Below, piece by piece: positions 1-42,906 of a DNA stretch of 64,000 nt; the first letter of the stretch is position 1; every line of letters starts with the position of its first letter. This DNA is from a virus. Its lineage: Duplodnaviria; Caudoviricetes. The notes below the pieces were generated by a model. The model had not been told where the DNA came from, ran no database searches, and saw only the letters and a list, made by a program, of their open reading frames with translations. The stretch spans positions 1-64,000 of the IMG/VR virus record IMGVR_UViG_3300034062_004592; one strand, given 5' to 3'. Both the position numbers and the translations under genes were made by a program.

Positions 1-60
1 AACAGTAAAGTAACCGAGGTGGTAACGAACTCTACTTTTGTCGTAGTCGCTTAACTGCAC
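1..60 (-). CDS. 5' fragment of a putative virion (head-tail connector-type) protein, runs off the window edge
   Basis: GTG start at 60 reads VQLSDYDKSRVRYHLGYFTV with no stop before the edge; TATAAT upstream; lies in the structural operon. Confidence 0.5.
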   Translation of the reverse strand, partial: MQLSDYDKSRVRYHLGYFTV

Positions 61-99
61 TTCTACGTGTCGTTGTCTTTCAATTATAAAAGCAAGTAA

Positions 100-837
100 T
101 CAACCAAACAGGCCATTGAGGTAATCTGATGTGGCGCTGGATTGACCCATAAGTAACGGATCGTTTGTTCTGTAAGAATCCAGGAATCCCATGGGGTTGA
201 GTGCTTGTGAAATTAAACCTCCAACCAACTGTTCTTTAAGTGCGTCTTGTATTGTTTTCTTGGGTTTTTCTGATTCTTTACCCTGCAACTGAGCGCCGTA
301 CATGAATGCTTTAATGATGTCGTCAGCTCGAGAATCTGTGCCCCCTTGTGGTTGAGTCGGTGCTGCAGTTGGTGCAGTTGATGCAATAGCCCCGGCTTTG
401 CCAAGGGATTTCATGTGTCCGAAACCAAGTTCGTATTTGTTATCTCCTGTGGTAAATGCTGCTAGGTTGCCGTAACCACCTTGATTAGCAAGGGGCTTGT
501 ATGTACCAGAGCCTTCGAAATAAACCGGAGTTCCTTCTGGAAGAGCCCAATCTTCTCCCCGGTGAAACGAACTGGCTCCCTTGGTTGGAGCACTGCGCGG
601 ACCATACTTGGAAGTCAGGCTGATCCCAGCTTGTGGATTGAAATCGTATTTACCTTCTTTGTTTTTAATCAGTGCTGGGACTCTTTGCTCGCCAACGCGA
701 ACACCAGCCAAAGCAGAACGAATAGTAGAGGGATCAATATATTGTCCTGTCGAAAGATCTTTCACATAAACATGCTTATGGGGACCGGTTGATACTCCGG
801 TAGAGCCCACCTGTCCTAAGTATGTTATGCCTGCCAT
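100..837 (-). CDS. M23-family Zn metallopeptidase, circularly permuted (virion-associated muralytic enzyme)
   Basis: M23 motifs GQVGSTGVSTGPHKH, FHRGED (HxxxD), GGYGN and FGHM are present, but in permuted order. Confidence 0.75.
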   Translation of the reverse strand: MAGITYLGQVGSTGVSTGPHKHVYVKDLSTGQYIDPSTIRSALAGVRVGEQRVPALIKNKEGKYDFNPQAGISLTSKYGPRSAPTKGASSFHRGEDWALPEGTPVYFEGSGTYKPLANQGGYGNLAAFTTGDNKYELGFGHMKSLGKAGAIASTAPTAAPTQPQGGTDSRADDIIKAFMYGAQLQGKESEKPKKTIQDALKEQLVGGLISQALNPMGFLDSYRTNDPLLMGQSSATSDYLNGLFG

Positions 838-3481: not shown

Positions 3482-4468
3482 TCATTCCATTACAAACAGT
3501 TTGTTTGCAACGGTCTGAGGCTGAGCTTGGTTCAGGACGCGCCAAGCGTTCTGAGGATCGCGATTCATCATCTCGCCAAAAGTGCCCCAGAAATTCTCAG
3601 GTGCTTGCGGAGCAGCAGCTGTCGGGGGAGCAGGGAAGTTGCCAGCTTGGAACTGACCAATCGACTGAGTCGGATAACCGCGTGTCTCAAGTTCCTGCTC
3701 GTTTTCGTACACAGGGTACGGACCTTCAGGACCAAAAAACTTAAGCGTGTAATCGCTCAGGACATCGGGATTGGTAAGGATCTCGTTGTAGGCAAGATTC
3801 TCTTGATGCTCGTTAATGGCAAAATCAGCGTAACCCTTGATGGTATCAGCGGCGCGGTTTCCCCACGCGACGGCGCTGTCCAGCATTTGCTCCAGGTTTA
3901 GAGCGTAGTTGTTCAGCACTGCCGGAGCTTCGATCCCGAACGCGTCCATCACGTACCGACTGTCCTGGCTCATTCCCAGGAGGTCCGCCATTTGGGTTGC
4001 CGCCTCCTGCAAGGATTGATTGGAGGAGGTTGGGGAATAGCTGGGCGAGTATGCCTGGTTGGGAGACCAAGTCTGCGGAGCCGATTGTTGCGTAGCTTGG
4101 CTGCTGTACTGTCCGTAATTGGCCGGGGTATACGCCGTCGTCGGCGGCGATGGTTGACCCTGGAACGGGGATTGGACTGGTGCGCTCAGCAGATTCACCA
4201 CCTTGTTGAACGCCGATTCCCAGGGATTCCCCGCCGAGTCCGCCGCCGGTTGGGATTGGGGGGCGTACTGAGTAGGGCTGGATTGGTAGCTGGGGGCTGC
4301 CTGAGGTACCGCTTGGGGGTAACTGGTACCCACCTGATACGCCACCGGAGCCGGAGCCTGGTAACTGGCCGGAGCTGCTTGCGGTGCTGCCACCACGTAG
4401 CTGCTCGGCGCGACGGCCACTGGTGCTTGGCTCGTCTGTGGGATCGATTGGACGGTAGCGTCCTGCAT
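3482..4468 (-). CDS. putative capsid scaffolding/assembly protein
   Basis: Pro/Gln/Ala-rich N-terminus with a helical C-half; AGGAG SD upstream; sits between portal and capsid. Confidence 0.6.
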   Translation of the reverse strand: MQDATVQSIPQTSQAPVAVAPSSYVVAAPQAAPASYQAPAPVAYQVGTSYPQAVPQAAPSYQSSPTQYAPQSQPAADSAGNPWESAFNKVVNLLSAPVQSPFQGQPSPPTTAYTPANYGQYSSQATQQSAPQTWSPNQAYSPSYSPTSSNQSLQEAATQMADLLGMSQDSRYVMDAFGIEAPAVLNNYALNLEQMLDSAVAWGNRAADTIKGYADFAINEHQENLAYNEILTNPDVLSDYTLKFFGPEGPYPVYENEQELETRGYPTQSIGQFQAGNFPAPPTAAAPQAPENFWGTFGEMMNRDPQNAWRVLNQAQPQTVANKLFVME

Positions 4469-6218
4469 AACTCATCTCCTTTTGTAAAGCTTCTAAAGTG
4501 CGATATAGATAGGGTGTTAAATCTAATCGCGGGTCCGCAGCCATCGGTAAGTCCGGTGATTGCGGATGGGGAGTTTGCATCATTCCCCCCACAAGGCGAG
4601 CAAATTGAGAGTATGCACTCTGCAATTCATTCACCATTCTGAACGGAAACCCAGATAACATCTCGGCCCGTTCCTCATCCGTCTTGGACGGGAAGAGGTA
4701 TTTCAGTGCCTCAATGCTATCAACACCTAACTCCTGTAAGTTGCGTACCACGATGGAGTTGTTCAGGATGTCTTGAGTGGAATCCTCATAAACAGGTCCA
4801 AGCCAACGCCACTGCATGGTCACATCGCCATCTGGAATCAAACCAGAAACACCAGGAGGGATCTGCTGCGTTTGAAGGCAAGCCATCATCAACTGCTTGA
4901 CTTGATCATCAAATGCACTCATGGCATCGTTGTAAGCTGCCAAGTCTTCCGCACTAGATTCCTCTGGAAGATCCAGGGGTTTTTCTAATCCTGCAGCGGC
5001 GGCAAGCGTCTCCTTAAACAGGCGTTCTTCTTGGTAGATAATTAGCTCAAAACAACGGCAGATACCGTAAGTGTAAATGGCAATTGCCTTTTTCTTGGAC
5101 GTGGCAGAAACACGACCAAACAATGACTTGTACTCAGTAGCAGTCACGCCTGCAGAAATTGACAGTTCGTCAACGCCGCCCAGGGCGGTGCGAATTTCTT
5201 CTCGGTACTGACGTGCAAAAGAATTCTGGTCGCCAGTGATGGCATCGGGAACAATGTAACCAACACGGTCGTTTGGTTCCAGGTTTGCAATGACGCGTGG
5301 AACTCGGATCTGTCCGTCAACACCACGGTGAATGGGATCAGCCTTGAATCGGGATTGACTCAGTCCACTGGGACCACTGAACCCAGAGTTAGCTGCGATA
5401 GAAGGACGCTGAACAACGTTCTCGCCACCGGCCTCCATCAAGTCAGTCTTGGGCCTGGAGGAAAGAAGCGTGGGGTTACCAAAGAACTGTACGTTCTTGC
5501 GCATGGTGCGAACCATTTCGTCATGCGTGCAGATGTGATTGGCTAACGCTTCAAATTCACCGACACCTTCAGTAGAGAAACCCTTGACGTTATGGAAAAT
5601 TTCTACGCAAGGAATAAAGCCCAGCGTATTTGTAAACGTTTTTGTTCTACCAAAATTTGCTTGGTAGTTGCTATCAAACGACAGCTCACCTTCCGAGTGG
5701 GTTTCTTCAATCGTTTTGCGTTTGATTGAAAGGCGGATGTAACGCTTTGCACCGCCCTGTCCCATGGTGGCCGGACCACTTAAACTTGCGGAATCAATGT
5801 CCTGCTGGTAACCAAACCCGTTCTTGACCTTGTAGCTGTAAATGATTACAACTTCATCAAGCTCGCCATCAATGTTGTAATAGCTACGATATTCGTGCTT
5901 ACGAAAGTAGTAAAGACGATAGTTGTTCTGAGTTGGACGGATGTAAAAAAGACCTTGCCCATCACAAAGTGAATAATCCCAGATTGAATCGAAGCGGATG
6001 TCGAGAGAGTTGTATTTGATTACACGGTCAATAAAGTCTTTGCGCTGATTCCCAAAGTTATCCTGCACAGGAAAAAACTCAACACCCTGGCGGATGCCGA
6101 ATAATTTCATCTGCGCTAGGTGTGAAGCTACGACGCCAGTGTCAATCATTGACCCGCCGTCTTTTTCAAGATACGAGTCAATAATTTCCTTGAGTCTAGA
6201 CTTAGCGTCGACGGCCAT
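3846..6218 (-). CDS. portal protein with long C-terminal extension overlapping the scaffold gene
   Basis: Position between terminase and scaffold/capsid; portal-like motifs (NTLGFIPCVEI, W.GPVYEDS..D); 790-aa open frame. Confidence 0.7.
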   Translation of the reverse strand: MAVDAKSRLKEIIDSYLEKDGGSMIDTGVVASHLAQMKLFGIRQGVEFFPVQDNFGNQRKDFIDRVIKYNSLDIRFDSIWDYSLCDGQGLFYIRPTQNNYRLYYFRKHEYRSYYNIDGELDEVVIIYSYKVKNGFGYQQDIDSASLSGPATMGQGGAKRYIRLSIKRKTIEETHSEGELSFDSNYQANFGRTKTFTNTLGFIPCVEIFHNVKGFSTEGVGEFEALANHICTHDEMVRTMRKNVQFFGNPTLLSSRPKTDLMEAGGENVVQRPSIAANSGFSGPSGLSQSRFKADPIHRGVDGQIRVPRVIANLEPNDRVGYIVPDAITGDQNSFARQYREEIRTALGGVDELSISAGVTATEYKSLFGRVSATSKKKAIAIYTYGICRCFELIIYQEERLFKETLAAAAGLEKPLDLPEESSAEDLAAYNDAMSAFDDQVKQLMMACLQTQQIPPGVSGLIPDGDVTMQWRWLGPVYEDSTQDILNNSIVVRNLQELGVDSIEALKYLFPSKTDEERAEMLSGFPFRMVNELQSAYSQFARLVGGMMQTPHPQSPDLPMAADPRLDLTPYLYRTLEALQKEMSYAGRYRPIDPTDEPSTSGRRAEQLRGGSTASSSGQLPGSGSGGVSGGYQLPPSGTSGSPQLPIQPYSVRPPIPTGGGLGGESLGIGVQQGGESAERTSPIPVPGSTIAADDGVYPGQLRTVQQPSYATIGSADLVSQPGILAQLFPNLLQSILAGGGNPNGGPPGNEPGQSVRDGRVRDRSSGSAEQLRSKPGANAGQRRRVGKPRR

Positions 6219-17394: not shown

Positions 17395-17498
17395 AATCCT
17401 GTTCTATAAACCTTTAATTTGCCTCCCAACATTCTATTGGCGATAAATCTTAGAAACATGGGCGCTATAGTGAAACAATAACGTATTTGATTCCAGGG

Positions 17499-17711
17499 AT
17501 GGACGCCGGTACACGCCAAAAACGGGTCGAAGCTCTTGAAGCAATTAAAGATAGGGCTCTTGGGATGGCTGAAAAGAATACTGATCCGTTTGAAGTGCGT
17601 GATTTTGTGACTTCAGCCAAAAAAGAATTGGCATATGAGTTGCCTGACGAAGAAGCATTCAAAAAAGCAATGAACGCAACCCTCGCGTACAAGCGTAAAA
17701 AGGAATCTTAG
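17499..17711 (+). CDS. hypothetical protein
   Basis: ATG at 17499; TATAGT upstream; terminator downstream. Confidence 0.6.
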   Translation: MDAGTRQKRVEALEAIKDRALGMAEKNTDPFEVRDFVTSAKKELAYELPDEEAFKKAMNATLAYKRKKES

Positions 17712-17735
17712 AAATATAAGGACTTTTAAATATCG

Positions 17736-17762
17736 GCCGGGGCAAATGACCCCGGCTTTTTT
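17736..17762 (+). terminator. Rho-independent terminator
   Basis: GCCGGGG-CAAATGA-CCCCGGC-TTTTTT. Confidence 0.85.
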
Positions 17763-18223
17763 GTCTAAAAATTTGGGATAAACCTTGTTTTACATGACAC
17801 AATCGCACTTTTACTTAAAAGAGGGGCCCTATAGACCCCAAAAAGGGACTAGATTTTCCTGACGCTTCTCCACCCACCCACCCGAGTAGGGTCACGGGGA
17901 GAAAAAAAAGAATGTTGGGAGTGGCAGTGAGAGTAGGAGGGGGTGCGGTGGCACCAACAATCCCCTAACTACGTTATAACGATAGTGTTATACCCGCTCA
18001 CTTCGTTCGCTAGTGCGACGAGCGGGCAAATATATACTGTCGTCCCTACCAAGCCTCAGCCAACAGACAGAACCAACATCCTCGGCTGATACGATTTCGT
18101 ATCGCGCTGCGATATGCTTAGCTACACTCTCCTCCTGTTTTCAGGAAGAACTGTTGTCAATACTGGGTTTTCGGGGGCTGCGCATCCGTACAACGCAGAC
18201 ATTCCATTGCATTCAACTTTAAG

Positions 18224-18403
18224 ATGGACATCTTCTACACCATTGTTACCAAGGAAGCAGCGTATTACTTCGTTGCTAACTCACAGTACAACCTGGTGCG
18301 TATCACACGCTTAGTCCTCAAAGGACAGAAGGGATACCACCGTAGTACCACAATGTCAATCGACAATGGACGCGAGTTCGCTCGCAGACTAAAGGCCAAG
18401 TGA
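18224..18403 (+). CDS. early hypothetical protein (59 aa)
   Basis: Read by hand: MDIFYTIVTKEAAYYFVANSQYNLVRITRLVLKGQKGYHRSTTMSIDNGREFARRLKAK. Confidence 0.6.
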   Translation: MDIFYTIVTKEAAYYFVANSQYNLVRITRLVLKGQKGYHRSTTMSIDNGREFARRLKAK

Positions 18404-18471
18404 GTAATAACTCCCTGCCAGGTGTAAAGCCTGGCTTGGTCATTGCCCAGCACGTAGGGATGGGCTCCTAC
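18394..18471 (+). ncRNA. tRNA-like minihelix plus pseudoknot leader element, copy 1
   Basis: Acceptor-like GGCCAAG/CTTGGTC-A, T-arm CCAGG-TGTAAAG-CCTGG, then pseudoknot GCCCA/TGGGC with GTAGGG/TCCTAC. Confidence 0.6.
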
Positions 18472-18487
18472 ACAACAACTCAACACC

Positions 18488-18679
18488 ATGCGTTACCAAT
18501 TCCCTAATGCAGCCACAATTATTTGTGTTGCAGCATTGATCATTGGTGTAGGCACACAAGTGTCAGTGCATCAACTTGAAAAGGCAACAGCACAGCAATG
18601 TGCTAACCACGATTGGCCTAAGGAAGCACACGAGGTTCACATGGCCTGGTGTGCAGCCAATCAGTATCCAACCAACTGA
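18488..18679 (+). CDS. small membrane protein
   Basis: N-terminal TM; QCANHDWP..H..HMAWC..NQY motif. Confidence 0.65.
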   Translation: MRYQFPNAATIICVAALIIGVGTQVSVHQLEKATAQQCANHDWPKEAHEVHMAWCAANQYPTN

Positions 18680-18750
18680 GTACCAGGCGTGAGCCGGGGG
18701 ATCGAATCCCCCACTTAGTTATTGCCCAGCACGTAGGGATGGGCTCCTAC
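18674..18750 (+). ncRNA. tRNA-like minihelix plus pseudoknot leader element, copy 2
   Basis: AACTGAGT/ACTTAGTT-A, T-arm GGGGG-ATCGAAT-CCCCC, then the identical 30-nt ATTGCCCAGCACGTAGGGATGGGCTCCTAC. Confidence 0.6.
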
Positions 18751-18766
18751 GCAACTCAGTTCAACC

Positions 18767-18925
18767 ATGGCTATTCGTAAGACTCTTGCTCAACAATTCT
18801 CTAAGGCTGCCAAGGCTTTGGAGAATGACAAGAGCAAGGAACGACTGGGCGCAGCAGTAATTGTTGCACGTGTGGCTTTGGCTAACACGATCATGCCCAA
18901 GAAGTTTAACTACCCAACCAGGTGA
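18767..18925 (+). CDS. early hypothetical protein (52 aa)
   Basis: Read by hand: MAIRKTLAQQFSKAAKALENDKSKERLGAAVIVARVALANTIMPKKFNYPTR. Confidence 0.6.
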   Translation: MAIRKTLAQQFSKAAKALENDKSKERLGAAVIVARVALANTIMPKKFNYPTR

Positions 18926-18944
18926 GTAATAGCTCCCAAGCCAG

Positions 18945-19031
18945 GTGCAATACGATGCTTACTGTGATCTCTACCCGAATGCTTGGATAGAGATTGTAAG
19001 CAAGGGAGACTACGATTCAGTAGTCAAATAG
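18945..19031 (+). pseudogene. 3' remnant of a gene fused to a truncated tRNA-like element
   Basis: Frame reads (V)QYDAYCDLYPNAWIEIVSKGDYDSVVK*, starting inside the broken T-loop of element copy 3. Confidence 0.4.
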
Positions 19032-19070
19032 CTTACTGATCAACTTACTAACTTACCACTAGGAGACACA

Positions 19071-19283
19071 ATGACTTACACATTCGATCAACTCAAGGAA
19101 GCACTTAATGAGTGCACATCATATGACCTTCAACCTTATTCTGATAGTAAAGAGTCTGGTTATTTACTCATTGATCCATTCAGTGATATAGTTGGCTACC
19201 CATTCTTTGATCTTGATGATGTCGCTGATTACATCATAATCAACGATCAGGTAGCTGACTACCTAACACAACTAGACAACTGA
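19071..19283 (+). CDS. acidic hypothetical protein
   Basis: 70 aa; AGGAG SD. Confidence 0.65.
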   Translation: MTYTFDQLKEALNECTSYDLQPYSDSKESGYLLIDPFSDIVGYPFFDLDDVADYIIINDQVADYLTQLDN

Positions 19284-19284
19284 C

Positions 19285-19333
19285 GTTTGCACTAAGGGGC
19301 TACGGCCCTTTTCTGCAGACCTCATTGTCTGCA
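19285..19333 (+). promoter_or_regulatory. RNase III-type hairpin with alternative 3' hairpin, copy 1
   Basis: GTTTGCA..AAGGGGC-TACG-GCCCTTT..TGCAGAC; TGCAGAC can instead pair with downstream GTCTGCA. Confidence 0.55.
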
Positions 19334-19358
19334 TTCAATTCACACCACTTGGATTCAC

Positions 19359-19598
19359 ATGACTCCTAAAGCTGTTGAACATTTACTCACGCAGGACGCT
19401 CGCCTGCTTGCACGTCGAGACGCCCCTGTCATTGACCAAGATCTTGAGCAGCAGCGTCAAGCTGCACTCGAAATCTTTTTCCAATGGCAAGATGGGGCGC
19501 GTGAGTTCCAAGATCTTATGCCGTTCTGCGTGGTACTCCAACGCCAGGTAAATCTCAACCGAGATCTGCTACGTTGGGAACGCCAGAACGCAGACTGA
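19359..19598 (+). CDS. hypothetical protein
   Basis: 79-aa ORF between structured spacers. Confidence 0.6.
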   Translation: MTPKAVEHLLTQDARLLARRDAPVIDQDLEQQRQAALEIFFQWQDGAREFQDLMPFCVVLQRQVNLNRDLLRWERQNAD

Positions 19599-19599
19599 C

Positions 19600-19671
19600 T
19601 TCTGTACTTAACCTTCCGTTGATACGAATTCGTATCGGCGGTAGGTTTTCTACAGGACTCAACATCCTGTA
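19600..19671 (+). promoter_or_regulatory. RNase III-type hairpin with alternative 3' hairpin, copy 2
   Basis: TTCTGTA..AACCT..GATACGAATTCGTATC..AGGTT..TACAGGA; alternative TACAGGA-CTCAACA-TCCTGTA. Confidence 0.55.
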
Positions 19672-19692
19672 TCCCATTGTCAATTCAACACC

Positions 19693-20073
19693 ATGCTGAG
19701 CAACACCATCATCGGCAACATCACTTACATGGAGAAAGCTGTGCATGAGGGTCGCGAGTTCCTTGCGATCACCATGGCAGTTAACGACATGTACGAAGGT
19801 GCTTGCCGAGTCCGGTTCAACAACTCCAACGGGTTGTTGACTGCATACAACAACAGCACACTCGTTGTTGGACACCAGCTCATCCTCGGTCAATATGACG
19901 TGCGCATCAGCAGCATTCGTACGCACTACCTAAAAGATGGACTGATGCATCAACTCAAGTATCCTGAGCTTGCACTTACTCGAGTGAGGGCTATCATCGG
20001 TGCTGCACCCAGGCCCAAGCCTGAGGTTGTAGCACCAACTGTCGAACCAACTCTCGAAGAGATTGCATTCTGA
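19693..20073 (+). CDS. OB-fold/SSB-like protein
   Basis: NTIIGNI start, beta-rich core, Pro linker and acidic-aromatic C-terminus LEEIAF. Confidence 0.45.
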   Translation: MLSNTIIGNITYMEKAVHEGREFLAITMAVNDMYEGACRVRFNNSNGLLTAYNNSTLVVGHQLILGQYDVRISSIRTHYLKDGLMHQLKYPELALTRVRAIIGAAPRPKPEVVAPTVEPTLEEIAF

Positions 20074-20074
20074 C

Positions 20075-20131
20075 TCCTGCATCAAGGGCCTTGGGTTACC
20101 GGGGCCTTTCTTGCAGGACTCAACATCCTGT
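20075..20131 (+). promoter_or_regulatory. RNase III-type hairpin with alternative 3' hairpin, copy 3
   Basis: TCCTGCA..AAGGGCCTTGG-GTTA-CCGGGGCCTTT..TGCAGGA; alternative CAGGA-CTCAACA-TCCTG. Confidence 0.55.
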
Positions 20132-20156
20132 TCAACATTTACCCAACATCTCAACC

Positions 20157-20465
20157 ATGCCAGTCACTATTGATCACAAAGAACTTCAAGATGCACTGGA
20201 AGAGTTTAATATTCGTCCGGCAGATTACTATCTGTCGTTTGACACCAATGTTCTTTACCTCGTTTGGTGTACAAACGGCGCTAATGCCGTTCGTCTCGTA
20301 CACAACAACGGGTGTATAGACATTGAAATCAAAGGCGTATGGCATGAGGAAATTCCTGAAGGTTACATCCTTCCTTCATACGCATGCGTACGTTACATCC
20401 TTGCCGGTGCCGTACTTGGCATCGACATCACCTCACCTAACACCACTACACAACAACTGACATGA
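20157..20465 (+). CDS. hypothetical protein
   Basis: ATG at 20157 after the CTCAACC leader; C-terminus duplicated in the next gene. Confidence 0.55.
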   Translation: MPVTIDHKELQDALEEFNIRPADYYLSFDTNVLYLVWCTNGANAVRLVHNNGCIDIEIKGVWHEEIPEGYILPSYACVRYILAGAVLGIDITSPNTTTQQLT

Positions 20466-20631
20466 AACAAATCATTCCCCTCGGCAAAGGCCGATTTGTC
20501 CACGTTGATTCTTACGGTGCGTCTCATGAGACACGCCGTGGATCAATTATTGTGGCAGCCTTTGCTATGCTCATCTCAGCACTCACTGTCGGTGCCGTAC
20601 TTGGCATCGACATCACCTCACCCAACACCAC
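20405..20631 (+). repeat. 42-bp direct repeat (20405-20446 and 20590-20631, one mismatch)
   Basis: CGGTGCCGTACTTGGCATCGACATCACCTCACC(T/C)AACACCAC. Confidence 0.9.
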
Positions 20632-20665
20632 ACAACATGGCTATCCACATCGCACTGATCGTTGA
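20462..20665 (+). CDS. small membrane protein
   Basis: TM segment IIVAAFAMLISALTVGAVLGI. Confidence 0.6.
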   Translation: MKQIIPLGKGRFVHVDSYGASHETRRGSIIVAAFAMLISALTVGAVLGIDITSPNTTQHGYPHRTDR

Positions 20666-20861
20666 CCGCACCGGTCGCTATGCCCACGTTTGGGGCGAAG
20701 CTCCAAGCTGGAGTAAGTTTTCCGACCAGCTCGAAGACCTTGGCGCAGAGGTGGTAGAAGAACAAACAGACGACTGGGAAGGCAGTACTAAAGATGAGAT
20801 CGCTGAAGATTGCGTGGCAATTAACCAGCTTCTCAGCGGTACGGACTTCTTGCCCCATTGA
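20637..20861 (+). CDS. acidic hypothetical protein
   Basis: ATG at 20637 (MAIHIALIVDRTGRY...). Confidence 0.55.
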   Translation: MAIHIALIVDRTGRYAHVWGEAPSWSKFSDQLEDLGAEVVEEQTDDWEGSTKDEIAEDCVAINQLLSGTDFLPH

Positions 20862-20947
20862 TAGCGTCAACAGAACAGACCACACCACACCTGGTACTTG
20901 TCATCTGATAGGTACCAGGTACTCTATGCAAGCAACCAACTCAAACC

Positions 20948-21397
20948 ATGGAAGCACTCAGCCAACTGGACGTTCAAGCCCCTGATCACGTCAGTGTGAT
21001 TACAAGGGAAGGCAAGGTCACCATCTCCGTCGTCAAAGACGGAACATCAGTGACCCTTGGGTTCCCCATCAAAACTACAGGGCTTGATACAACCCCCAGA
21101 CCCCCGCTTCAGCCACCAGCACCAAAAGTAATGGCTGTTAAGACCCAGCATTCCACTGCAGTGCAGCTGGAAACATCTTATCTTTCTTTGAAAGGTAAGC
21201 ACTCTCCCGTTGGCAACTGTAAGTTGACACCACAGCAGGTACGTCAAATCAAACTGATACTGACCGATGAACGGTTCATGAAAGCATTTGGTTCTAGGCA
21301 ACAAGCTTACGAAGCAATTGCTGCTAAGTTCAACGTCAGTTACCACACAATCTCCAACATCCACAAGGGACTTGCTTGGAGGAACGTAAGTATCTAA
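20948..21397 (+). CDS. HTH DNA-binding protein
   Basis: C-terminal KLTPQQVRQIK...IAAKFNVSYHTISNIHKGLAW, an HTH of the type found on HNH endonucleases. Confidence 0.65.
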   Translation: MEALSQLDVQAPDHVSVITREGKVTISVVKDGTSVTLGFPIKTTGLDTTPRPPLQPPAPKVMAVKTQHSTAVQLETSYLSLKGKHSPVGNCKLTPQQVRQIKLILTDERFMKAFGSRQQAYEAIAAKFNVSYHTISNIHKGLAWRNVSI

Positions 21398-21426
21398 CAC
21401 CGCAGTAGTATATTTGTACTACGAAT

Positions 21427-21454
21427 GGACCTGAGTAAGTCCTTAAACTGCTCA
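21427..21454 (+). ncRNA. H-type pseudoknot leader motif
   Basis: GGAC-CTGAGTAA-GTCC-TTAAAC-TGCTCA. Confidence 0.65.
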
Positions 21455-21476
21455 ACACACCACTGCAACTCACACG

Positions 21477-21674
21477 ATGAAAGACCCTGACTTCATTGAT
21501 GAACAACGCAATGCCGATGCCCTTGACGCAATGGCTGATCGTATATACGAATTGGAAGAAGCCATGCGTGAAGCAGAGCAAGATGGTTGGACAGGCGTTT
21601 TCAATGATGAGATATCAAATGAAGAACGCTACGCATGTGACCATTACAACGAGAGGTATGTAATCAATGACTGA
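21477..21674 (+). CDS. acidic hypothetical protein
   Basis: 65-aa ORF after the pseudoknot. Confidence 0.6.
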   Translation: MKDPDFIDEQRNADALDAMADRIYELEEAMREAEQDGWTGVFNDEISNEERYACDHYNERYVIND

Positions 21675-21965
21675 ACCGCTCTCCCCCGCCGCGCAGGCGG
21701 TGCTGGATGCGTATAAGAACGCTCCAGATTTGATGCTTGACGGTGATCCTGACGAAGTGGAACGGCGCCTTGGCCTTGCCGCCGCCCTGCGGGTTGCTGC
21801 TGATCAGGTAGCACCCGATGGCTATGCCTCATTTACTGGCGACATCGATTGGGACCAAGGAATGGAAGCAAGAAGTGACTCAATCCGTGAGGCAATCCTC
21901 GCCATCGCCGCCGAGCTGGAGGTACGCATGTGACCATTACAACGAGAGGTATGTAATCAATGACT
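21630..21965 (+). repeat. 43-bp perfect direct repeat (21630-21672 and 21923-21965) flanking a cassette gene
   Basis: TACGCATGTGACCATTACAACGAGAGGTATGTAATCAATGACT. Confidence 0.95.
21667..21933 (+). CDS. LSPAAQAVLDA-family cassette protein A1
   Basis: Constant blocks LSPAAQAVLDA / AAALRVAADQV / LAIAAELE. Confidence 0.7.
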   Translation: MTEPLSPAAQAVLDAYKNAPDLMLDGDPDEVERRLGLAAALRVAADQVAPDGYASFTGDIDWDQGMEARSDSIREAILAIAAELEVRM

Positions 21966-22439
21966 ACCACTAAACAAATCTGGGATGAAGACCCAGTGCT
22001 ACTGGCTATTGTCCTGGTATCAATCACAGTCACACTCATTGGAGACTTCATTAAATGCCTACTGCAAATTCATTTGCCAAGACAGAAACAGCTCGTCGTT
22101 GGATCAGTCATTACAACTGGTCAACAGAGTTTGAAGACAAGGAACCAACCACGATCACGCTCCACGAATGCAGCCTGCATTACGGTGGACCAGAAGAAGG
22201 CGGATGGTATTACGAATCAGGCTGGCCCATCAAAACAGTCTGTGTCTTCTCCAAGAAGCAAGCCATCCGCGAAGCAATCGCACTCGAAGAGTACGCACTC
22301 GAAACGTACGGCGACAAGAAGGACTACCTCGGATGGCCTCAATGGCGCGTTAGTTTCTCAGACGAGTACGCCAAAGCGTACCCCAAAGAACGTCCGTACT
22401 ATTGCTGATGTCAAATCAACTGGACCTGCCAAAGCTTGA
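21960..22439 (+). CDS. TM-anchored hypothetical protein overlapping 22055..22408
   Basis: ATG within the repeat; N-terminal TM VLLAIVLVSITVTLIG; the rest is in an overlapping frame. Confidence 0.4.
   Translation: MTTTKQIWDEDPVLLAIVLVSITVTLIGDFIKCLLQIHLPRQKQLVVGSVITTGQQSLKTRNQPRSRSTNAACITVDQKKADGITNQAGPSKQSVSSPRSKPSAKQSHSKSTHSKRTATRRTTSDGLNGALVSQTSTPKRTPKNVRTIADVKSTGPAKA
22055..22408 (+). CDS. hypothetical phage protein
   Basis: YGGPEEGGWYY and YPKERPYYC motifs common in small phage proteins. Confidence 0.7.
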   Translation: MPTANSFAKTETARRWISHYNWSTEFEDKEPTTITLHECSLHYGGPEEGGWYYESGWPIKTVCVFSKKQAIREAIALEEYALETYGDKKDYLGWPQWRVSFSDEYAKAYPKERPYYC

Positions 22440-26149: not shown

Positions 26150-26377
26150 ATGCCTGATTACACTGACGATCAACTACTTGCCATGGCAATGGCAAATCTT
26201 GGTGAGTACATCCATGACAACTCACCACATTACATTCTGATTGAAGAAGATCCTCGCAATGAGGATGACTACGATACGTGGAGTTATGGCTGTGAGCCAT
26301 TGCCACATGATCACACTTGGCAACACACATCAATTGATGTGAGTGTAAGCCCAAGTGATGGGGACATGGCGGAATAG
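26150..26377 (+). CDS. acidic hypothetical protein
   Basis: MPDYTDDQLLAMAM...; the 3' end runs into the tRNA. Confidence 0.5.
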   Translation: MPDYTDDQLLAMAMANLGEYIHDNSPHYILIEEDPRNEDDYDTWSYGCEPLPHDHTWQHTSIDVSVSPSDGDMAE

Positions 26378-26445
26378 GTAGACGCAACGGACTTAAAATC
26401 CGTAGGCCATTGGCTGTGAGAGTTCAAGCCTCTCTGTCCCTACCA
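26360..26445 (+). tRNA. trnL: tRNA-Leu (UAA)
   Basis: GGGGACA/TGTCCCT acceptor, D arm TGGCGGAATAGGTAGACGC, anticodon arm ACGGA-CTTAAAA-TCCGT, long variable arm, T arm GAGAG-TTCAAGC-CTCTC, encoded ACCA. Confidence 0.95.
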
Positions 26446-42136: not shown

Positions 42137-42477
42137 TTGCCAGTGCCAAGAGAAAATAATACAGTTGCCGCAGTGCCGCCCGATTCGGATACAAATACTG
42201 GTCGAACGTATCTCACCGGGTGGTTTGTTGAGTTGTAATGAGTTGTACCGTTAGCGGTAATGGTTGTATTGGCAATTATTTTAGACCAGTGGGTTCCGTC
42301 AATTGATGCTTCTAGTGCAATGATAACGTTGGTATTAATTGATGCTACTGTTACAAACAACGAATAGTTTTTTGTGACAATAGTTGGAGGTAAATAAACA
42401 GAAATGGAATCACACGAAGCGGGTGCATCAAGCAAAGGATAAGTAAAAAATAAACTATCGGGGGGATGTGCTGTCAT
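42133..42477 (-). CDS. beta-rich virion/tail-associated protein
   Basis: LEASIDGTHW..., PVRYVRP..SESGGTAA. Confidence 0.6.
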   Translation of the reverse strand: MTAHPPDSLFFTYPLLDAPASCDSISVYLPPTIVTKNYSLFVTVASINTNVIIALEASIDGTHWSKIIANTTITANGTTHYNSTNHPVRYVRPVFVSESGGTAATVLFSLGTGN

Positions 42478-42559
42478 GAGTTTTGCCTTTATCTTTTTAT
42501 TTTAATGCATAAAATTATTGTTGCACTTCCTTTTATAATAGAACTACAGTTAAAAAATT

Positions 42560-42588
42560 ATGTATACTCCTGCTCCCCAACAGTACCA
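42560..42588 (+). repeat. duplicated 5' end of the ferritin-like gene (matches 46427-46455)
   Basis: ATGTATACTCCTGCTCCCCAACAGTACCA versus ATGTATACTCCTGCCCCTCAACAGTACCA. Confidence 0.8.
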
Positions 42589-42606
42589 AGTAGCTGTAAA
42601 CAATAA

Positions 42607-42906
42607 TTATGTTGCAAACACTCTTACCGGCTGCTCCGGCGTCACGACATAGGCGTCCCACCCATCAGGCAGCTCACCGATGTAGTTGACGTGCCAGCCG
42701 CTCAGCAGCACGGGTGGGGTAAGCACCTCGCCGGTCTCAGGGTCGTAGGTGCCGCCTGTGTAGATGGGACCGATGACATCCAGGGCGTGCGTGTGGCTGG
42801 CGGTGAGGGGATGCGTGACGCCATCATCGTCGGTGTAAAGAAGGCCAGCAGCATCCAGGGCAGCCATGCCGGTGGATTCGTCGGGGAAGCGGATGTAGTG
42901 GGTCAT
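42607..42906 (-). CDS. tail fibre chaperone/assembly protein
   Basis: ALDVIGPIY..GWHVNY..P..PVRVFA, typical partner of the upstream fibre gene. Confidence 0.65.
   Translation of the reverse strand: MTHYIRFPDESTGMAALDAAGLLYTDDDGVTHPLTASHTHALDVIGPIYTGGTYDPETGEVLTPPVLLSGWHVNYIGELPDGWDAYVVTPEQPVRVFAT

What the first reader, a model, noticed from the sequence alone, without database searches (positions are those of the whole stretch)
19285..20131. Three refoldable RNase III-type hairpins: cleavage would create a new 5' hairpin
Seen: after three consecutive TGA stops there is a long stem with an internal loop. Its 3' basal strand (TGCAGAC, TACAGGA, TGCAGGA) can pair either with the 5' basal strand (GTTTGCA, TTCTGTA, TCCTGCA) or with a downstream copy (GTCTGCA, TCCTGTA, TCCTGT) across a CTCA-containing loop. 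All three strands covary between copies. Established: T7 early mRNA is cut by RNase III at internal-loop hairpins. Inference: after the cut, the downstream mRNA refolds a 5'-terminal hairpin for protection. This is a second route to the same outcome as the tRNA-like cassettes.
Basis: partly seen in the sequence, partly recalled or inferred. Interest (0 to 1): 0.7.

Follow-up and report, generated by a model that had tools for sequence, protein, structure and literature searches.

The report
Cut-and-refold hairpins between cyanophage early genes
Three RNA hairpins between early genes of a freshwater cyanophage each have a strand that can pair with either of two partners, a conserved design that looks built to be cut by a host RNase and then refold into a protective cap on the next message.

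Summary
The window comes from an 85-kb relative of Synechococcus phage S-EIVl. At 19281-19333, 19596-19671 and 20071-20131 (+ strand), each element starts at a TGA stop codon. Each forms a long hairpin: a basal helix (strand 1:strand 2), a small internal loop and a variable apical hairpin. Strand 2 can instead pair with a downstream strand 3.

Relatives were chosen by protein homology, not by the motif. In these, 50 of 50 distinct elements keep all three strands. There are 10 different strand-2 heptamers, each matched on both sides. The intact RNA folds as 1:2 in 48 of 50. RNA starting just before strand 2 folds as 2:3 in 50 of 50, against 170 of 1000 shuffled controls.

Helix 2:3 is therefore under selection but can form only when strand 1 is removed or occupied. 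The geometry matches T7-type RNase III sites, so cleavage followed by refolding into a 5' hairpin is my best reading (about 0.5). No cleavage data exist.

A ribosome-driven switch at the embedded stop codon is the main rival. The element matches no Rfam family, and no RNase III or RNA polymerase was found in the phage. I class it as a new variant of a known kind.

The parts
19281..19291 (+). E1 strand 1 (5' basal strand); its first three bases are the TGA stop of ORF 19071-19283
19294..19311 (+). E1 apical hairpin, 7 bp with a UACG tetraloop
19314..19324 (+). E1 strand 2 (3' basal strand, TGCAGAC + CTCA); pairs with strand 1 or with strand 3
19327..19333 (+). E1 strand 3; forms a 7-bp hairpin with 19314-19320 once strand 1 is absent
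   Evidence: -10.0 kcal/mol
19334..19358 (+). E1 G-poor leader (25 nt) to the ATG of ORF 19359-19598
19596..19606 (+). E2 strand 1, including the TGA stop of ORF 19359-19598
19610..19647 (+). E2 apical hairpin (5 + 11 bp, 4-nt loop)
19651..19661 (+). E2 strand 2 (TACAGGA + CTCA)
19665..19671 (+). E2 strand 3 (TCCTGTA)
   Evidence: -7.8 kcal/mol
19672..19692 (+). E2 G-poor leader (21 nt) to the ATG of ORF 19693-20073
20071..20081 (+). E3 strand 1, including the TGA stop of ORF 19693-20073
20084..20109 (+). E3 apical hairpin (11 bp, 4-nt loop)
20112..20122 (+). E3 strand 2 (TGCAGGA + CTCA)
20126..20131 (+). E3 strand 3 (TCCTGT), pairing with 20113-20118
   Evidence: -6.5 kcal/mol
20132..20156 (+). 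E3 G-poor leader (25 nt) to the ATG of ORF 20157-20465

Best explanation
Each element is an intercistronic processing and stability module in the early polycistronic mRNA of an S-EIVl-like cyanophage.

Shown here: as transcribed, strand 1 (which usually contains the upstream gene's UGA stop) pairs with strand 2. Together with a small pyrimidine internal loop and a variable apical hairpin, this makes about two turns of double-stranded RNA.

Inferred: a host double-strand-specific endonuclease of the RNase III type cuts on the 3' side of the internal loop, as at T7 early sites. The upstream message keeps the apical hairpin as a 3' shield. The downstream message begins 0-3 nt before strand 2.

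Shown as potential and as a target of selection: strand 2 can pair with strand 3. This would give a 6-12 bp hairpin at the new 5' end, 17-45 nt ahead of the next start codon.

Inferred: that hairpin shields the 5'-monophosphate end from the cyanobacterial 5'-end-dependent RNases J and E.
For: Two exclusive helices, both under selection. Among 50 unique elements from loci chosen by protein homology, strand-2 positions 2-7 pair with strand 1 in 97.9% of cells and with strand 3 in 100%. There are 10 different strand-2 heptamers and 32 distinct triples. Permuted partners never reach these values (0 of 2000 each).

Tool counts agree. Helix 1:2 plus the apical helix is 94.8% paired, 14 of 17 pairs change on both sides, and 0 of 500 shuffles match. 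Helix 2:3 is 91.3% paired, with 4 of 7 pairs changed on both sides.

Helix 2:3 needs strand 1 out of the way. The full-length minimum-energy fold uses 1:2 in 48 of 50 elements. RNA starting 3 nt before strand 2 forms 2:3 in 50 of 50, against 170 of 1000 shuffled controls. The mean energies are -28.2 and -10.4 kcal/mol.

The register fits a cut in the 3' internal loop. The 5' hairpin starts at strand-2 base 1 or 2 in 45 of 50 elements.

The structure is read as RNA on the sense strand. G-U pairs are frequent (20 in helix 1:2 and 12 in helix 2:3, each out of 224 cells), and UACG/UUCG apical tetraloops are common.

The geometry is like the T7 early RNase III sites folded. E. coli RNase III substrates have about two helical turns, and internal loops limit cleavage to one strand, leaving a protective 3' hairpin (PMC1540722, introduction passages).

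[quoted passage not shown] In Synechocystis, processed 5' ends that accumulate when RNase E is inactivated are followed by unusually structured RNA (PMC8682795, section 19).

The position is always intercistronic, in the sense orientation, and ahead of at least 12 different ORF families.
Against: No cleavage, no mapped 5' end and no RNA data of any kind exist for these sites.

The apical stem varies from 6 to 17 bp, while the basal helix keeps near-invariant bases (C-A-G of strand 2, the UGA:UCA pairs and a pyrimidine-pyrimidine mismatch in 49 of 50). That looks more sequence-specific than classical RNase III recognition.

The stop codon lies inside strand 1 in 33 of 50 elements and within 10 nt in 12 more. 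Terminating ribosomes could therefore be what frees strand 2.

The intact long hairpin could by itself block exonucleases from both sides, without any cut.

The sequences are related and paralogous, so the covariation counts are not independent events.

The cultured relative S-EIVl has only one copy that I could see.
Confidence: 0.5

Rival explanations
1. Ribosome-actuated switch. A ribosome terminating at the UGA inside strand 1 unwinds the basal helix. Strand 2 then snaps onto strand 3, so the RNA toggles between 1:2 (untranslated) and 2:3 (upstream gene being translated). This would couple upstream translation to the fate or accessibility of the junction, with or without a nuclease.
For: The upstream ORF's stop is the TGA of strand 1 in 33 of 50 elements and lies 1-10 nt upstream in 12 more. 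The three TGA:TCA pairs are in the minimum-energy fold of all three window elements. The TCA stays single-stranded in the loop of hairpin 2:3 and could nucleate re-formation of 1:2 (inference).
Against: In 4-5 of 50 elements the stop called by my script is 24-29 nt upstream. By eye, the upstream homologue's stop in L096 and L106 lies still further from strand 1. All of these are out of a terminating ribosome's reach, yet 2:3 is kept. G-A of strand 1 is kept even where the stop is a TAA two bases upstream, so the pairing does not depend on the stop function. No downstream consequence of the toggle is visible: the leader and start codon are unpaired in both states.
Confidence: 0.2
2. Protein-recognised hairpin. 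The strand 2:strand 3 stem-loop, or the basal helix with its mismatch, is the binding or cleavage site of a sequence-specific phage or host protein. Candidates are a boxB/N-type antiterminator, a translational repressor or a dedicated endoribonuclease.
For: There are near-invariant bases (C-A-G in strand 2; loop CTCAACA in 17 of 50) and a conserved unpaired pyrimidine pair. The exact 17-mer was found in 80 viral stretches, and 73 of those loci carry the whole element.
Against: The loop varies in length (4-7 nt) and sequence (22 variants). The conserved TCA is explained by pairing with TGA. The stem takes 10 different sequences. No RNA-binding or nuclease domain was found among 98 ORFs scanned with Pfam, but most early ORFs have no Pfam match at all.
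Confidence: 0.1
3. Partial intrinsic terminators. The apical G+C-rich hairpin plus the following T-rich tract would step down transcription along the early operon, and the flanking pairings would be incidental.
For: E1-E3 have TTTTCT, TTTTCT and TTTCTT after the apical stem. E2 is flagged as terminator-like. That cyanobacteria lack Rho is recalled, not tested here.
Against: Only 1 of the 3 elements passes the terminator scan. Many homologues have no T run after the apical stem (the 56-nt class). The T's pair with A's as part of the stem. Strands 2 and 3 lie downstream of the would-be release point, yet they are the most constrained parts.
Confidence: 0.08
4. DNA-level element. This could be an operator-like palindrome, a hairpin promoter of the N4 type, or a recombination cassette boundary like the T4 promoter-early stem-loops, all of which act on DNA rather than RNA.
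For: Strand 2 and strand 3 form an inverted repeat. The elements flank at least 12 different downstream ORF families and could serve as crossover points for gene shuffling.
Against: All elements lie on the coding strand. G-T pairs would be A-C mismatches on the other strand. Reverse-strand model hits score only 13-23 bits. The stems change by compensatory substitutions within one genome (E1 against E2 and E3), which is not expected for a protein half-site. The promoter scan places no sigma-70-like site in the three junctions. No RNA polymerase gene was found.
Confidence: 0.07

Closest known systems
Bacteriophage T7 early-region RNase III processing signals (R0.3, R0.5, R1, R1.1, R1.3)
   Same: Both are repeated hairpins between genes of a host-transcribed early operon. 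Both have a lower stem, an internal loop and an upper stem of about two helical turns (T7 folded). In T7 a single cut in the internal loop leaves a protective 3' hairpin (PMC1540722, passages).
   Different: There is no sequence similarity. The T7 downstream products mostly stay unstructured at the 5' end: -0.3, -4.8, -0.8, -5.8 and -0.3 kcal/mol, none significant (the cleavage coordinates were recalled from memory). Here a dedicated, covarying third strand is present in 50 of 50 elements. Here the stop codon usually lies in the helix. The host is a cyanobacterium with RNase J.
Bacillus phage SP82 early mRNA: Bs-RNase III sites followed by a 5' stabiliser
   Same: It is a phage of a host that has RNase J, and it combines RNase III processing of early RNA with an element near the new 5' end that stabilises the downstream RNA. 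The RNase III processing is recalled. PMC7509114 (passage) says only that mutating the ribosome-binding site shortens the half-life of SP82 mRNA.
   Different: The SP82 stabiliser is a ribosome-binding polypurine sequence, not a hairpin made from the cleaved stem.
5'-terminal stabilising stem-loops (ompA type)
   Same: A hairpin at or within a few bases of the 5' end protects an mRNA (Emory et al. 1992, seen as cited in PMC7509114).
   Different: Those hairpins are present on the primary transcript. Here the hairpin is latent and can form only after strand 1 is lost.
Chloroplast intercistronic processing with PPR-protein barriers
   Same: Both belong to the cyanobacterial lineage of RNases, and in both a block placed between cistrons defines the 5' end against RNase J (PMC3799425, abstract).
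   Different: The chloroplast barrier is a protein, and the ends arise by exonucleolytic trimming. Here the barrier would be RNA structure.
T4-type promoter-early stem-loop cassettes (PeSL; recalled)
   Same: Both are repeated stem-loop-containing elements between small, shuffled early genes.
   Different: PeSLs carry a sigma-70 early promoter. No promoter-like site was placed in these junctions.

Membership tests
T7-type RNase III processing signal | About two helical turns of double-stranded RNA | tested here: met
   The basal helix is 10 bp plus one mismatch, the internal loop is 2-4 nt per side and the apical stem is 6-17 bp.
T7-type RNase III processing signal | An internal loop between the lower and upper stems that restricts cutting to one strand | tested here: inconclusive
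   The loop is present in all three window elements and in the homologues. Its effect on cleavage cannot be computed.
T7-type RNase III processing signal | Intercistronic position in a polycistronic early mRNA, in the sense orientation | tested here: met
   In 45 of 50 elements an upstream stop lies 0-10 nt from the element. A start codon follows 17-45 nt after it in 49 of 50. All hits in the genome are on the + strand.
T7-type RNase III processing signal | Cleavage by RNase III | not testable with these tools
   No RNA run was listed.
T7-type RNase III processing signal | No inhibitory base pairs in the proximal and distal boxes | not tested
   The rules are defined for the E. coli enzyme (PMC1540722). 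The host enzyme and the cleavage site are unknown.
5'-terminal stabilising stem-loop | A hairpin within a few unpaired bases of the 5' end | tested here: inconclusive
   The hairpin begins at strand-2 base 1 or 2 in 45 of 50 elements. This meets the rule only if the cut falls in the 3' internal loop.
Intrinsic (Rho-independent) terminator | A G+C-rich hairpin directly followed by a run of U | tested here: not met
   One of the three elements is flagged. The 56-nt class of homologues has no T run.
Any Rfam 15 family | A match to a curated covariance model | tested here: not met
   At the gathering threshold only the tRNA matches. With E <= 1 on 17700-20300 there is no hit inside the elements.
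T4 promoter-early stem-loop cassette | A sigma-70 early promoter after the stem-loop | tested here: not met
   No promoter-like site lies in 19284-19358, 19599-19692 or 20074-20156. The leaders are not conserved.

The most novel reading that the evidence does not exclude
The element is a translation-gated, cut-triggered RNA switch. While the upstream gene is being translated, ribosomes stopping at the UGA inside strand 1 hold the junction in the 2:3 form, which hides the double-stranded nuclease site. When translation ceases, helix 1:2 re-forms, the site is cut, and strand exchange gives the downstream message a 5' hairpin. One 55-85-nt module would then integrate ribosome traffic, processing and the differential stability of neighbouring cistrons. 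It would be a design principle for phages of hosts that have RNase J.
Probability: 0.15. Interest if true: 0.8.

Novelty: new variant of a known kind. Interest (0 to 1): 0.62.

Why it matters
Phage early operons are a classic model for RNA processing, but almost everything known comes from T7 in E. coli, a host that lacks a 5'-to-3' exonuclease.

This element is widespread in an environmentally common lineage of freshwater cyanophages. The exact 17-mer was found in 80 viral stretches, and 73 of those loci carry the whole element. It has an unusual signature: one strand under selection to pair with two different partners.

If the cut-and-refold reading is right, it shows how a phage protects processed messages in a host that has RNase J. 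It would also offer a compact natural part, 55-85 nt long, for insulating cistrons in cyanobacterial synthetic operons.

One copy lies in the cultured phage S-EIVl, so the idea can be tested directly.

Tried and rejected
RNA evidence: the look-up of sequencing runs (kind rna) on window 18000-22000 listed no RNA holder, so read laying could not be used.

Earlier findings: two look-ups returned nothing.

I replaced it with per-sequence folds and a model-based alignment.

A loose three-strand scanner that allowed G-T pairs gave 1899 mostly spurious triples and was dropped.

Models R1 and R2 did not detect the S-EIVl copy at E <= 1. I found it by reading the homologous junction and checked it by folding.

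Host motif: the 17-mer occurs 44 times, singly, in unrelated prokaryote genomes. All score 26 bits or less with R1, the level of the 17-mer alone, so these are chance matches and not a host signal.

Duplex energetics: a cofold estimate suggests strand 3 weakens the product duplex by about 2-6 kcal/mol. It depends on arbitrary fragment ends, so I give it no weight.

Rejected by eye without a formal test: Mini-III-type sequence specificity (the ACCU motif of the B. subtilis enzyme is present only in E1-type copies), a Shine-Dalgarno role for the AGGA of strand 2 (it is lost in 6 of the 10 heptamer variants), and ribosome bypassing or readthrough (the downstream ORFs have their own conserved start codons).

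Full report
**Setting.** The window is bases 1-64000 of an 85,462-bp IMG/VR virus record. A 790-aa virion protein is 80% identical to one of Synechococcus phage S-EIVl, a cyanophage from a high-arctic lake. Other ORFs match terminase, family-A DNA polymerase, primase, ThyX and tail proteins. Structural genes run on the minus strand up to 17394. From about 18200 a run of small plus-strand ORFs follows, which I take to be the early operon. The finding lies between its fourth to seventh ORFs.

Folded as RNA, each full element gives one long hairpin:
- A basal helix of 10 pairs. It begins with the TGA stop paired to the TCA of the 'CTCA' loop and is interrupted by one C-C mismatch.
- A 2-3-nt internal loop on each side.
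- An apical hairpin of 7, 16 and 11 bp.
- Energies of -24.4, -33.5 and -34.6 kcal/mol, z about -5 to -6, with 0 of 200 shuffles as good.

RNA that begins in the 3' internal loop folds instead into a strand 2:strand 3 hairpin (-10.0, -7.8 and -6.5 kcal/mol). A covariance model built on the long hairpin finds exactly these three sites in the whole genome at E <= 4e-10, all on the + strand.

**A conserved family that covaries three ways.** The 17-mer shared by E2 and E3 occurs in 80 stretches of IMG/VR, often two or three times per contig. Of those loci, 73 of 80 carry the whole element by model R1 at E <= 0.001. The other seven look like chance matches.

That set was selected on the motif. I therefore took 28 loci found only through homology to the protein of ORF 19693-20073. 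With the window, R1 gave 74 matches there. I dropped 9 reverse-strand rows, 2 partial rows and 13 duplicates, which left 50 unique elements. In these 50:
- Strand 2 takes 10 different heptamer sequences.
- At its variable positions both partners follow. Position 6 is G, A, C or T with matching bases on both sides in 50 of 50. Position 7 is A, C or G and pairs with strand 3 in 50 of 50 and with strand 1 in 48 of 50.
- Over positions 2-7, 97.9% of cells pair with strand 1 and 100% with strand 3. Permuting partners never reaches this (0 of 2000 each).
- The count of structure pairs gives 94.8% paired cells and 14 of 17 pairs with changes on both sides for helix 1:2 plus the apical helix (0 of 500 shuffles).
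- For helix 2:3, on an alignment fitted to that structure, it gives 91.3% paired and 4 of 7 pairs with changes on both sides. That alignment still contains the weak reverse-strand rows.

Two caveats apply. The sequences are related and the copies are paralogous, so cells are not independent events. Both my per-sequence folds and the model alignments lean towards pairing. The 10 heptamer types are the safer count.

**What the two helices imply.** The full-length minimum-energy fold uses 1:2 in 48 of 50 elements. The truncated RNA forms 2:3 in 50 of 50, against 170 of 1000 when the next 25 nt are shuffled. Strands 1 and 2 are also transcribed before strand 3. So helix 2:3 is maintained by selection, yet it can form only when strand 1 is removed or occupied. 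G-U pairs and UACG/UUCG tetraloops place the structure in the sense RNA. Reverse-strand model hits score only 13-23 bits.

**Best reading.** The long hairpin has the shape of the T7 early RNase III sites, which I folded from V01146 for comparison. RNase III substrates of E. coli span about two helical turns. Internal loops restrict cutting to one strand, which leaves a protective 3' hairpin (PMC1540722, introduction passages).

A cut in the 3' internal loop would leave strand 2 at the new 5' end. The 2:3 hairpin starts at strand-2 base 1 or 2 in 45 of 50 elements, which is the register expected for a 5'-terminal hairpin. Cyanobacteria have 1-3 RNase III genes, Mini-III, RNase E and an essential RNase J whose exonuclease acts on 5' ends that are not triphosphorylated (PMC10989914, passages). 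In Synechocystis, processed 5' ends that accumulate when RNase E is inactivated are followed by unusually structured RNA (PMC8682795, section 19). 5' stem-loops are known stabilisers (PMC7509114, passages).

After each hairpin comes a leader of 17-45 nt (median 24) with only 5.4% G, usually without a Shine-Dalgarno sequence, and then the start codon. The T7 downstream products show no comparable 5' hairpin (cleavage coordinates recalled). The third strand is therefore what sets this family apart.

All steps after 'the RNA can adopt both folds' are inferred. I put 0.5 on this reading.

**Rivals.**
- Ribosome switch (0.2). The stop codon is inside strand 1 in 33 of 50 elements and within 10 nt in 12 more, so a terminating ribosome would open helix 1:2 and could be what lets 2:3 form. 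Against it as the only cause: in 4-5 elements the stop called by my script is 24-29 nt away, and by eye further still in L096 and L106, yet 2:3 is kept. The G-A of strand 1 is also kept where the stop is a TAA two bases upstream.
- Sequence-specific protein (0.1). The invariant C-A-G, the pyrimidine-pyrimidine mismatch (49 of 50) and the common CTCAACA loop suggest this. However, the loop has 22 variants, and its TCA is explained by pairing with TGA.
- Intrinsic terminator (0.08). This fails because many homologues lack a T run and the most constrained strands lie beyond the release point.
- DNA-level roles (0.07). These fail on strand specificity and on G-T pairs, and the promoter scan placed no sigma-70-like site in the junctions.

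Pfam found no RNase III and no RNA polymerase among 98 ORFs of the phage, so host enzymes are assumed. Most early ORFs have no Pfam match at all.

**Distribution and novelty.** The elements precede at least 12 unrelated ORF families among 129 unique contexts. They act as generic punctuation and are not tied to one gene. S-EIVl has one copy, at the junction homologous to E2 (KJ410740 about 42658-42717, minus strand). It starts with the TGA stop of AHV82199.1, has a long hairpin of -23.9 kcal/mol and a 7-bp 2:3 hairpin of -11.3 kcal/mol.

No Rfam 15 family matches. The 17-mer is not a motif of prokaryote genomes. Three literature searches listed no paper whose title or abstract describes such an element: cyanophage + RNase III + processing, 16 papers; S-EIV1 + cyanophage, 30 papers with 10 listed; RNase III/intercistronic/phage/stem-loop/RNase J, 55 papers with 12 listed. 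I did not read those papers for this point and consulted no supplements.

I class it as a new variant of a known kind: phage intercistronic RNase III-type hairpins with an added, latent 5' hairpin.

Noticed in passing
window 18404-18487, 18680-18766, 18926-19070: The three junctions upstream of E1 carry other structured cassettes. A 42-nt repeat (18435-18476 and 18714-18755, 93% identical) holds a small hairpin and is followed by a G-poor leader of about 10 nt to the ATG. A T-arm-like hairpin lies at 18696-18712. So other early cistrons also begin with a hairpin plus a G-poor leader. S-EIVl has similar repeated cassettes.
   Followed up: partly
L087, L088 and L090 around 4400-4520; L097 around 2380-2480: In some relatives the apical hairpin of the element after the ORF 19693 homologue is interrupted by tens of bases of unrelated sequence. 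The apical loop seems to tolerate or attract insertions.
   Followed up: no
window 17487-17757: A small ORF is followed by a strong terminator-like hairpin (GGCCGGGG...CCCCGGC plus a T run) that is conserved in many relatives. It lies just before the presumed start of the early operon.
   Followed up: no
window 1-127 and genome 84541-84667: The first 30 bases of the record recur at 84541, with 127 identical bases before the first difference. A 245-aa Peptidase_M23 ORF is found at both ends (100-837 and 84640-85377). The record's ends overlap, through either a terminal repeat or an assembly overlap.
   Followed up: partly
window 20402-20446 / 20587-20631 and 21630-21672 / 21923-21965: There are direct repeats of 45 nt (96% identical) and 43 nt (100%) spaced 185 and 293 nt apart inside neighbouring small ORFs. 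This suggests tandem paralogous early genes.
   Followed up: no
L112 3197-3632 minus strand (KJ410740 about 42196-42631): Downstream of the S-EIVl element, an open frame of about 145 codons starts with ATG and is homologous to window ORF 19693-20073. The record annotates only a 64-aa CDS there (42195-42386).
   Followed up: no
window 26360-26445: A tRNA-Leu (anticodon TAA) gene lies after the 578-aa ORF.
   Followed up: no
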